A DNA stretch of 3,201 nucleotides, from the NCBI RefSeq assembly GCF_003334315.1, contig NZ_QOWR01000105.1, one strand, 5' to 3'. Position numbers and translations under genes: made by a program. The DNA comes from Escherichia coli (GTDB lineage Bacteria; Pseudomonadota; Gammaproteobacteria; Enterobacterales; Enterobacteriaceae). The notes beneath the pieces are model-generated. The model searched no databases. It saw only the letters and a list, made by a program, of their open reading frames with translations, and had not been told where the DNA came from. Shown here in pieces: positions 320 through 1,572 of the stretch. The first letter of the stretch is position 1. Each line of letters begins with the position of its first letter.

Positions 320-676
320 TTAATGAGTCACCGCTCGATGCTTTATCTTTTCAGGGTCATGATTATATTTAAACCCAAAGAAAAATATCACTGCGAGAAA
401 AAGAGCATATCCTGCAAACACCAGCCAGATAGTTTGCCAGTCTTTTACGCCATCCACCGAAAAGTAATCTACTGCCATGCCACTCAGAATCGAGCCAACC
501 CATGCGCCGACACCATTTACCATGGTCATAAAGAGCCCCTGCGCGCTGGCACGAATGCTGGAATCAACTTCCTGTTCGACAAATACCGAACCAGAAATAT
601 TGAAGAAATCGAATGCACAGCCATAAACAATCATCGACAGCAGCAGCAAAATAAATCCGGTTGTTGACGGATCGCC
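320..676 (-). CDS. xapB: xapB C-terminal ORF fragment (frame-shifted continuation, about 118 codons)
   Basis: The ORF track calls 320-649 with an alternative TTG start, but that codon is an internal Leu of the LLLL stretch. The same frame is open upstream to at least 676 and encodes GDPSTTGFI before it. This matches the conserved NupG/XapB C-terminal region (SMIVYGCAFDFFNISGSVFVE). Confidence 0.8.
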   Translation of the reverse strand, partial: GDPSTTGFILLLLSMIVYGCAFDFFNISGSVFVEQEVDSSIRASAQGLFMTMVNGVGAWVGSILSGMAVDYFSVDGVKDWQTIWLVFAGYALFLAVIFFFGFKYNHDPEKIKHRAVTH

Positions 677-1572
677 GCGAAGAAGCCAAAGCGCAGCGTC
701 CAGGCCACCATACTCATCAGCATGACGGTTTTAATGCCAAATCGCTTTAAAAAGAATGGGATAGTCAGTATAAAGCCCACTTCTGCCATCTGTGAAACTG
801 ACAGTAAAATGGAGGGATATTTCACCACAAAACTGTCAGCAAACTCCGGGTTACGGGCGAAATCATGTAGGAACGGATTACCAAAAACGTTGGTAATTTG
901 CAGTACCGCACCCAGCATCATGGCAAAGAGGAAAAAGATGGCCATGCGTGGATTTTTAAACAGCACGAAGGCATCCAGACCCAGCTTGCTGGCAAGCGAT
1001 GTGGTCGCTTTTTTCTCCGCAACCGGAATCTTCGGCAAAGTCAGCGCATAAGCCGACAGCAGCAATGACGCACCGGACGCGATATACAGCTGCAGACTAC
1101 TCAATTCCAGATGCAGCAGGCTTACTGCCCACATCGCGACAATGAACCCCACCGTACCAAAAACGCGAATGGGCGGGAAAGCGGTCACCGGGTCAAGCCC
1201 TGCCTGGGCAAGACAGGAATAAGAGACGCTGTTCGATAACGCAATAGTCGGCATAAACGCCATCGCATTGACTAACATCACCCAAAACATCATATCCGGA
1301 TCAGTTACGGATGCCGCATAAAAAAGTACGCCCGCACACACCAGGTGACACAGCATGTATGCACGTTCTGCGCGCAGCCATTTGTCTGCGATGATCCCCA
1401 TTATACCAGGCATAATAATCGCGGCGATCCCTTTGGAACTGTAAACCATGCCAACATTAGCGCCGGTGAAATGAAGGGTATTAATCATGTAAGAGCCGAG
1501 GGTAACCAGCCAGCTCCCCCAGATAAAATATTGCAAAAAGGACATTACCTTTAAGCGCATCGCGATGCTCAT
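631..1572 (-). CDS. xapB: xapB N-terminal ORF fragment (about 299 authentic residues plus a 14-residue out-of-frame tail)
   Basis: ORF track 313 aa beginning MSIAMRLKVMSFLQYFIWGSWLVTLGSYM, strongly NupG/XapB-like and hydrophobic (multiple transmembrane helices). Ends in the aberrant CCCCR tail created by the frameshift. Confidence 0.85.
   Translation of the reverse strand: MSIAMRLKVMSFLQYFIWGSWLVTLGSYMINTLHFTGANVGMVYSSKGIAAIIMPGIMGIIADKWLRAERAYMLCHLVCAGVLFYAASVTDPDMMFWVMLVNAMAFMPTIALSNSVSYSCLAQAGLDPVTAFPPIRVFGTVGFIVAMWAVSLLHLELSSLQLYIASGASLLLSAYALTLPKIPVAEKKATTSLASKLGLDAFVLFKNPRMAIFFLFAMMLGAVLQITNVFGNPFLHDFARNPEFADSFVVKYPSILLSVSQMAEVGFILTIPFFLKRFGIKTVMLMSMVAWTLRFGFFAAIRQQPDLFCCCCR

What the first reader, a model, noticed from the sequence alone, without database searches (positions are those of the whole stretch)
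631..680. Frameshift splits the xanthosine permease gene xapB into two ORFs
The N-terminal frame is correct through ...FGFFA (codon at 676-678) and then reads a nonsense tail AIRQQPDLFCCCCR-stop. The authentic continuation GDPSTTGFILLLLSMIVYGC... is in the +1-shifted frame starting at 674-676. The two frames overlap by one base, so the lesion is a deletion of 1 nt (giving ...FFA-x-DPS...) or of 4 nt (giving ...FFA-Y-GDPS..., which matches the FAYGDP motif I recall in the paralogue NupG and a 418-aa XapB). xapA is intact, so the locus would keep the phosphorylase and lose the dedicated transporter.
Basis: seen in the sequence. Interest (0 to 1): 0.5.

Follow-up and report, generated by a model that had tools for sequence, protein, structure and literature searches.

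The report
Four-base deletion inactivates xapB permease
The xanthosine importer gene xapB in this E. coli-type DNA is broken by a real, inherited 4-base deletion found in about 2% of completely sequenced E. coli and already marked "frameshifted" in public annotation, so this is ordinary decay of a dispensable gene.

Summary
On the minus strand, xapB (320-1572) reads correctly to Ala299 (678-676). It then runs into a 14-codon nonsense tail and a stop at 633-631, while the authentic frame continues from Gly301 (676-674) to the normal stop.

Against K-12 MG1655, the only differences across 2,544 bases are a 4-nt deletion (CTAT, gene positions 897-900, between window 676 and 677) and one SNP.

The deletion is not an artefact:
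- The same allele is an exact match in 96 complete E. coli chromosomes from many hosts, where PGAP annotates xapB as "frameshifted".
- The exact 313-aa truncated product is on record on about 700 contigs.

The break lies in the conserved FAYGDP loop between TM9 and TM10. It removes TM10-12, which carry the nucleoside-binding and proton-coupling residues Y318, F322 and D323, so the product is almost certainly null. xapA is identical to K-12.

The segment 205-2748 is bracketed by two IS1 copies. They truncate the small XapX ORF and yfeN and separate xapAB from xapR.

Verdict: a real pseudogene of a known kind, already annotated elsewhere. Interest is low.

The parts
1..204 (-). Left IS1 copy. 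It comprises the IRL end (182-204, GGTGATGATGCCAACTTACTGAT on the minus strand) and the first 49 codons of insA, and it runs off the window.
   Evidence: 1 mismatch in 204 nt to the annotated IS1A of NCTC11023. K-12 colinearity starts at 205.
205..267 (-). Remnant of the small XapX-domain (DUF1427) ORF. Codons 1-21 of 52 remain, and the ORF is cut by the left IS1.
   Evidence: The intact 52-aa ORF in HS30-1 matches TIGR03510 XapX (64.2 bits). The coordinates are mapped from the annotation.
320..1572 (-). xapB pseudogene, 1253 nt in place of the intact 1257 nt.
   Evidence: The identical sequence is annotated 'xanthosine/proton symporter XapB, frameshifted' by PGAP.
676..677 (-). Deletion junction. 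Four bases are missing between these two positions (CTAT on the coding strand, ATAG on the plus strand; K-12 gene positions 897-900).
   Evidence: Global alignments. This is the only indel in 2,544 nt.
631..675 (-). Out-of-frame tail AIRQQPDLFCCCCR (675-634) followed by the premature TGA (633-631). The TGA overlaps the in-frame ATG of Met315 (634-632), forming ATGA.
320..676 (-). Authentic C-terminal frame, Gly301-His418 plus the stop. It encodes TM10-12 and is now out of frame with the start codon.
   Evidence: TIGR00889 profile positions 310-418 are matched by the 109-aa ORF. Y318, C320, D323 and N326 are assigned to TM10 in NupG.
1632..2465 (-). xapA (xanthosine phosphorylase), intact.
   Evidence: The protein is identical to K-12 XapA. 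It matches the TIGR01699 XAPA equivalog at 541.9 bits.
2466..2713 (.). xapA-yfeN intergenic region, which holds the xapAB promoter and XapR sites in K-12. It is unchanged here.
   Evidence: No difference from K-12. The function of the region comes from PMC7205307 and was not tested here.
2714..2748 (+). 5' remnant of yfeN (Tsx/OmpK-family channel). It keeps 11 codons plus 2 nt and is cut by the right IS1.
   Evidence: K-12 context and annotation.
2749..3201 (-). Right IS1 copy. It comprises the IRR end (from 2749, GGTAATGACTCCAACTTATTGAT...) and the 3' part of insB (stop at 2764-2766), and it runs off the window. It has the same orientation as the left copy.
   Evidence: NF033558 IS1 family transposase, 126.2 bits. 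3 mismatches in 453 nt to IS1A of NCTC11023.

Best explanation
xapB carries a genuine, vertically inherited 4-nt deletion (CTAT, codons 299-301) that arose once on a common K-12-like haplotype of E. coli. Translation leaves the XapB frame after Ala299, in the short conserved FAYGDP loop between TM9 and TM10. It adds 14 wrong residues and stops.

The product keeps TM1-9 but lacks TM10-12. Those helices carry Y318 and F322 of the nucleoside pocket and the absolutely conserved D323 implicated in proton coupling. The high-affinity xanthosine/H+ symporter is therefore lost (inferred).

xapA remains intact. However, xanthosine can then enter only through the low-affinity NupC and NupG routes, so XapR-dependent induction and growth on xanthosine should be severely reduced (inferred from published K-12 genetics).

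In this particular genome the locus has decayed further. Two IS1 copies in the same orientation truncate the XapX ORF and yfeN and bracket xapAB.
For: - Lesion: the deletion is the single indel against K-12.
- Annotation: identical 2,544-nt sequence occurs in many chromosomes from human, pig, dog, pangolin, fish, sediment and seawater isolates, with xapB flagged 'frameshifted'.
- Frequency: a 60-nt probe with the deletion is an exact match in 96 records, and the intact 64-nt probe is an exact match in 2,511.
- Truncated product: the exact 313-aa protein is on 696 contigs and in 1,102 index blocks, named E. coli.
- Single origin: ten carriers are identical over 5,260 nt apart from 0-2 private SNPs each.
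- Family match: the N-terminal fragment covers TIGR00889 profile positions 1-300 and the C-terminal ORF covers 310-418.
- Position in the fold: R294 is in TM9. Y318, C320, D323 and N326 are in TM10. The Y318A and F322A mutations abolish uridine binding. D323 is absolutely conserved, and the pocket residues are identical in XapB.
- Phenotype: XapB is the main xanthosine importer, NupC and NupG have very low affinity, and a xapB deletion mutant grows extremely slowly on xanthosine.
- Dispensability: xapB and xapR are accessory in E. coli and the locus is sporadically distributed.
Against: - No reads for this window could be examined.
- No phenotype was measured for any carrier.
- The premature TGA overlaps the Met315 ATG (ATGA). 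Translation of a 104-aa C-terminal piece by termination-reinitiation is therefore conceivable, and its consequence is untested.
- Single origin is inferred by parsimony from an identical non-repetitive lesion and near-identical flanks. It does not rest on a genome phylogeny.
Confidence: 0.93

Rival explanations
1. The frameshift is a sequencing or assembly error in this window, and the real gene is an intact 418-codon xapB.
For: The window looks like a whole short-read contig. Its right end coincides exactly with the ends of many draft contigs inside IS1, so it has not been checked by long reads.
Against: - The same 4-nt deletion is an exact match in 96 complete genomes assembled independently and on about 700 contigs.
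- The context GCCTATGGC is not a homopolymer or a simple repeat.
- 2,511 genomes with the same flanks are read without the deletion, so the site is not systematically misread.
- The rest of the segment is base-perfect against other carriers.
Confidence: 0.02
2. The gene is still functional. Either ribosomes shift -1 near codon 299 to make a 417-aa protein lacking Tyr300, or the N-terminal piece (TM1-9) and a reinitiated C-terminal piece (from Met315, through the ATGA overlap) assemble into a working two-piece permease. Split lactose permease is known to do this (from memory, Bibi and Kaback 1990).
For: The premature stop overlaps an in-frame ATG as ATGA. Gene callers predict the 104-aa or 109-aa downstream ORF.
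Against: - No in-frame X XXY YYZ heptamer lies between the lesion and the stop.
- No Shine-Dalgarno-like sequence precedes the TTG (Leu310) or the ATG (Met315).
- A piece starting at Met315 would lack residues 300-314, which are the loop and the first part of TM10.
- PGAP treats the gene as a pseudogene, not as programmed frameshifting.
Confidence: 0.03
3. The loss of XapB was positively selected in this lineage rather than being neutral decay. Selection could act, for example, to prevent costly switch-like induction by xanthosine or to block entry of a toxic nucleoside. The nearby IS1 insertions would be part of the same selected shutdown.
For: The allele is geographically and ecologically widespread and common in drafts. 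Several carriers have further IS1 hits in xapA, in yfeN or next to xapR.
Against: - IS1 insertions around xapAB also occur in strains with intact xapB. This fits an AT-rich target preference rather than selection.
- The locus is accessory and often absent, which is what neutral loss predicts.
- Only one origin of this allele is evident, so there is no convergence signal.
Confidence: 0.07

Closest known systems
E. coli K-12 MG1655 xapB (b2406, NP_416901.1), xanthosine:H+ symporter
   Same: It is the same gene in the same position downstream of xapA. Of 1257 nucleotides, 1252 are identical, and the encoded residues 1-299 and 301-418 are identical.
   Different: The window lacks CTAT at positions 897-900, so the 418-codon ORF is split into a 313-aa product and an untranslated C-terminal frame.
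RefSeq xapB pseudogenes annotated 'frameshifted', for example DKQ63_RS06780 in E. coli HS30-1 (NZ_CP029492.1), WHU34_RS15595 in Z1323PEC0011 and ENE68_RS06420 in ECZP248
   Same: The allele is identical, base for base, over 2,544 nt.
   Different: Those chromosomes have intact XapX, xapR and (mostly) yfeN next to it. Here IS1 copies cut XapX at codon 21 and yfeN at codon 12. No fetched locus or listed complete genome shares these junctions.
NupG, the NHS-family prototype (PDB 7DL9/7DLA)
   Same: It shares the 12-TM MFS fold family with XapB, at E = 1.5e-159. The FAYGDP loop and the TM10 residues Y318, F322 and D323 are conserved in intact XapB.
   Different: It is a paralogue with different specificity. 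It transports guanosine but does not transport xanthosine with high affinity. It is not in this window.
Split lactose permease (functional complementation of LacY fragments; recalled from memory, not checked here)
   Same: It is an MFS symporter expressed as two polypeptides.
   Different: In those experiments the cuts were in loops and both pieces were complete and expressed. Here part of TM10 would be missing and no translation signal is evident.

Membership tests
XapB orthologue (xanthosine/H+ symporter of the xapABR locus) | Near-identity to characterised K-12 xapB, and a position directly downstream of xapA | tested here: met
   One SNP and one 4-nt deletion against b2406. xapA lies 59 nt upstream, and the XapX ORF remnant lies downstream.
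Nucleoside:H+ symporter (NHS) family, NCBIfam TIGR00889 / Pfam PF03825 | Match to the family profile above the curated cut-off | tested here: met
   The N-terminal product scores 543.9 bits against a cut-off of 446.1, but covers only profile positions 1-300 of 418. The C-terminal ORF covers 310-418 at 179.2 bits. Intact K-12 XapB scores 754.3 bits over 1-418.
Functional NHS transporter | A single polypeptide with all 12 TM helices, including TM10 residues Y318, F322 and D323 | tested here: not met
   The frame is lost after A299 and a stop follows 14 codons later. TM10-12 are encoded only in another frame.
Functional NHS transporter | Xanthosine uptake and growth on xanthosine | not testable with these tools
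   This needs uptake assays or growth tests on a carrier strain.
Programmed -1 ribosomal frameshift gene | An in-frame slippery heptamer X XXY YYZ at the frame junction | tested here: not met
   There is none between gene position 868 and the premature stop. The nearest one (TTTAAAG at 822) lies upstream of the lesion.
IS1 insertion sequence | IS1 terminal inverted repeats and InsA/InsB coding sequence | tested here: met
   The InsB part matches NF033558 at 126.2 bits. There is 1 mismatch in 204 nt and there are 3 in 453 nt to an annotated IS1A, and both terminal repeats are present.
IS1 composite transposon carrying xapAB | Two complete IS1 copies flanking the segment, with a target-site duplication outside the whole unit at a non-native location | not testable with these tools
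   Both IS1 copies run off the window. No matching configuration was found on plasmids, in complete E. coli genomes or in representative genomes.

The most novel reading that the evidence does not exclude
The xapB deletion allele marks a globally successful E. coli sublineage in which shutting down the xanthosine switch was selected for. Alternatively, the ATGA-coupled N- and C-terminal pieces still form a working or altered-specificity two-piece nucleoside permease. In either case the 'pseudogene' label would hide a functional adaptation.
Probability: 0.05. Interest if true: 0.35.

Novelty: already known. Interest (0 to 1): 0.08.

Why it matters
It matters little beyond correct annotation. 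The window's xapB should be labelled a pseudogene caused by a 4-nt deletion, not two separate genes and not an assembly error.

The allele could serve as a simple lineage marker for a subset of K-12-like (phylogroup A-type at this locus) E. coli. It predicts a weak or absent xanthosine-utilisation phenotype in those strains.

It also illustrates stepwise erosion of an accessory catabolic locus: first a frameshift, then IS1 insertions.

Tried and rejected
- **Plasmid or composite-transposon origin.** A PLSDB search found no plasmid with this IS1-xapAB-IS1 structure. The only full-length hits were megabase-sized records filed as plasmids, or divergent copies.
- **Source genome.** No complete RefSeq E. 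coli genome holds both junctions colinearly. A scan of GTDB representative genomes for the left junction found nothing. A junction-specific 60-aa ORF is not on record. None of the 17 fetched xap loci has either junction. The organism therefore stays 'IS1-rich E. coli (or Shigella)'. The source names attached to the truncated protein are all E. coli.
- **SNP at window 1477 as a clade marker.** This was rejected because the G variant is an exact match in 1,227 genomes.
- **Recoding and reinitiation signals.** None were found.
- **Literature on this allele.** Searches for xapB with 'pseudogene' and with 'Shigella' returned nothing that describes it.
- **Primary xap paper.** Seeger et al. 1995 (PMC177358) is not held, so the phenotype is cited through PMC7205307.

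Full report
**What is in the window**

The 3,201-base window contains a chromosomal segment, 205-2748, that is colinear with the E. coli K-12 xap region. All features below lie on the minus strand except yfeN.
- The first 21 codons of the small XapX-domain ORF (267-205).
- xapB (1572-320).
- xapA (2465-1632).
- The xapA-yfeN intergenic region, followed by the first 11 codons of yfeN on the plus strand (2714-2748).

Both ends of the window are IS1.
- Bases 1-204 are the IRL end plus the start of insA.
- Bases 2749-3201 are the IRR end plus the 3' part of insB.
- Both copies have the same orientation.
- The InsB part matches the NCBIfam IS1 transposase NF033558. The two pieces differ from an annotated IS1A by 1 mismatch in 204 nt and 3 in 453 nt.

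**Checking the observation**

- The ORF from the xapB start codon runs 313 codons. It reads ...WTLRFGFFA, then AIRQQPDLFCCCCR, then a stop at 633-631.
- The frame starting at 676-674 reads GDPSTTGFILLLLSMIVYGC... to the normal C-terminus ...HRAVTH.

Global alignment to K-12 MG1655 xapB (1257 nt, 418 aa) shows a single indel, the loss of CTAT at gene positions 897-900, and a single substitution at window 1477. Extending the alignment to the whole 205-2748 segment adds no further differences, and the XapA protein is identical to K-12. The FAYGDP motif is indeed shared with NupG (PDB 7DL9, E = 1.5e-159).

**Real lesion or artefact**

I could not look at reads, but population evidence settles the question.
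- The 2,544-nt segment is 100% identical, ungapped, to many complete E. coli chromosomes from humans, pigs, dogs, a pangolin, a fish, sediment and seawater. In those records PGAP annotates xapB as a 'frameshifted' pseudogene.
- A 60-nt probe centred on the deletion is an exact match in 96 records. The corresponding intact 64-nt K-12 probe is an exact match in 2,511. The same 96 appear as the 93.8% class in the reciprocal search.
- The exact 313-aa truncated product is on record on 696 contigs (1,102 index blocks), under E. coli names.
- The sequence context, GCCTATGGC, is not a homopolymer or a short repeat. The deleted bases lie in the loop of a small 5-bp hairpin, TCGCC-TAT-GGCGA. That hairpin may have favoured the deletion, which is an inference.
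- Ten carriers compared over 5,260 nt (xapR to yfeR) are identical apart from 0-2 private SNPs each. They differ from K-12 only by the deletion and the one SNP. That SNP is common (1,227 genomes), so the deletion arose on a widespread haplotype, most parsimoniously once.

**What the deletion does**

- NCBIfam TIGR00889 (nucleoside permease) is matched over profile positions 1-300 by the N-terminal product and over 310-418 by the downstream ORF. Intact K-12 XapB matches over 1-418.
- In NupG, which is 58% identical to XapB, R294 lies in TM9 and Y318, C320, D323 and N326 lie in TM10. The break after A299 therefore falls in the TM9-TM10 loop.
- The crystal-structure paper places Y318 and F322 in the nucleoside pocket. 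Alanine mutants at those positions lose uridine binding. The paper implicates the absolutely conserved D323 in proton coupling and states that the pocket residues are identical in XapB.
- A product with TM1-9 plus 14 wrong residues therefore cannot be a working symporter. This is an inference from homology and was not measured.

I looked for routes that could rescue the gene.
- No in-frame slippery heptamer lies between the lesion and the stop.
- No Shine-Dalgarno-like sequence precedes the TTG (Leu310) or ATG (Met315) restart candidates.
- The premature TGA does overlap the Met315 ATG as ATGA. A reinitiated piece would still lack residues 300-314.
- I rate functional rescue at about 3%.

**Expected phenotype, from the literature**

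XapB is the main xanthosine importer and closes a positive feedback loop through XapR. NupC and NupG admit xanthosine only with very low affinity. A xapB deletion mutant grows extremely slowly on xanthosine. In the published model the switch never activates without XapB (PMC7205307, citing Seeger et al. 1995).

In practice the intact xapA would also be poorly induced. In this window the left IS1 additionally sits between xapB and the expected position of xapR, so the activator's presence cannot be confirmed.

**Context and ordinariness**

The xap locus is accessory.
- 4,083 of 5,426 complete E. coli genomes have a megablast match to the segment, and 1,643 of those matches are at only 90-95% identity.
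- A pangenome study lists xapB and xapR at roughly half prevalence in phylogroups A and B1.
- xapR and xapA show sporadic, HGT-like distribution among gamma-proteobacteria.

IS1 has inserted independently at several other sites around xapAB.
- With intact xapB: strains NCTC11023, AF44 and 600055.
- With the frameshift allele: ECZP248, L007 and L009.
- None shares this window's junctions.

**Source of the window**

The window was not found as such on plasmids, in complete E. coli genomes or in representative genomes. The end-cut 145-aa InsB fragment encoded at 2764-3201 occurs at the extreme end of many draft-assembly contigs. The window is therefore probably an entire short-read contig bounded by collapsed IS1 repeats. 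This also means the structure beyond the IS1 ends is unknown.

**Comparison with what is known, and verdict**

This is xapB, a member of the NHS family by sequence. It fails the test for a functional transporter because it lacks a single 12-TM polypeptide. The identical allele is already annotated as a frameshifted pseudogene in RefSeq. I found no paper that discusses it.

It is a real feature of a known kind in a dispensable operon. Interest is low, at about 0.08. The most novel readings still open are selected loss, or a functional split permease, together at roughly 5% probability.

Noticed in passing
window 1-204 and 2749-3201: Two IS1 copies in the same orientation bracket the 2,544-bp xapAB segment. 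Recombination between them would delete xapAB, and the pair could in principle behave as a composite transposon. The outer ends and any target duplications lie outside the window.
   Followed up: partly
window 205-267 (minus strand): The 52-codon XapX-domain (DUF1427, TIGR03510) ORF between xapB and xapR is cut at codon 21 by the left IS1. It now reads into IS1 as ...FTIV-GDDANLLI-stop. Its function is unknown. The RefSeq annotation of K-12 MG1655 used here (NC_000913.3) lists no gene between xapR and xapB where this ORF lies.
   Followed up: partly
window 2714-2748 (plus strand): yfeN (Tsx/OmpK-family nucleoside channel homologue) is cut after 11 codons by the right IS1. An outer-membrane channel gene next to the xanthosine genes is therefore also inactivated in this genome.
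   Followed up: partly
window 2764-3201; loci L019-L027: The 145-aa end-cut InsB fragment encoded at the window's right end is found at positions 1-438 of many unrelated draft contigs. This indicates that the window is a complete short-read contig ending where assemblers break inside IS1.
   Followed up: partly
L007, L009, L014, L015, L016, L017 (xap regions of other E. coli strains): Independent IS1 insertions occur at different sites around xapAB: within xapA, in yfeN, in the xapA-yfeN spacer, at the 3' end of XapX, and at or next to the start of xapR. They are found in strains with and without the xapB deletion, which suggests a local IS1 target hotspot.
   Followed up: partly
window 182-204: The left IS1 has the IRL variant GGTGATGATGCC. 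Seven of the eight IS1 IRL ends found in the fetched loci read GGTGATGCTGCC, and only one shares the A variant.
   Followed up: no
window 631-634 (minus strand): The premature TGA of the shifted frame overlaps the in-frame ATG of Met315 as ATGA. This is why gene callers predict a separate 104-aa (ATG) or 109-aa (TTG) 'nucleoside permease' ORF downstream.
   Followed up: yes
K-12 xapB positions 891-903, corresponding to window ~670-683: In the intact allele the deleted CTAT sits in a 13-nt hairpin, TCGCC-TAT-GGCGA. It comprises the stem base next to the loop plus the whole 3-nt loop. Folded as RNA the hairpin has an energy of -6.4 kcal/mol. It is a possible structural cause of the deletion.
   Followed up: partly
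E. coli genome collection: About a quarter of complete E. coli genomes (1,343 of 5,426) have no megablast match to the xapAB segment. Another 1,643 carry a version only 90-95% identical, so the locus is strongly polymorphic in the species.
   Followed up: no
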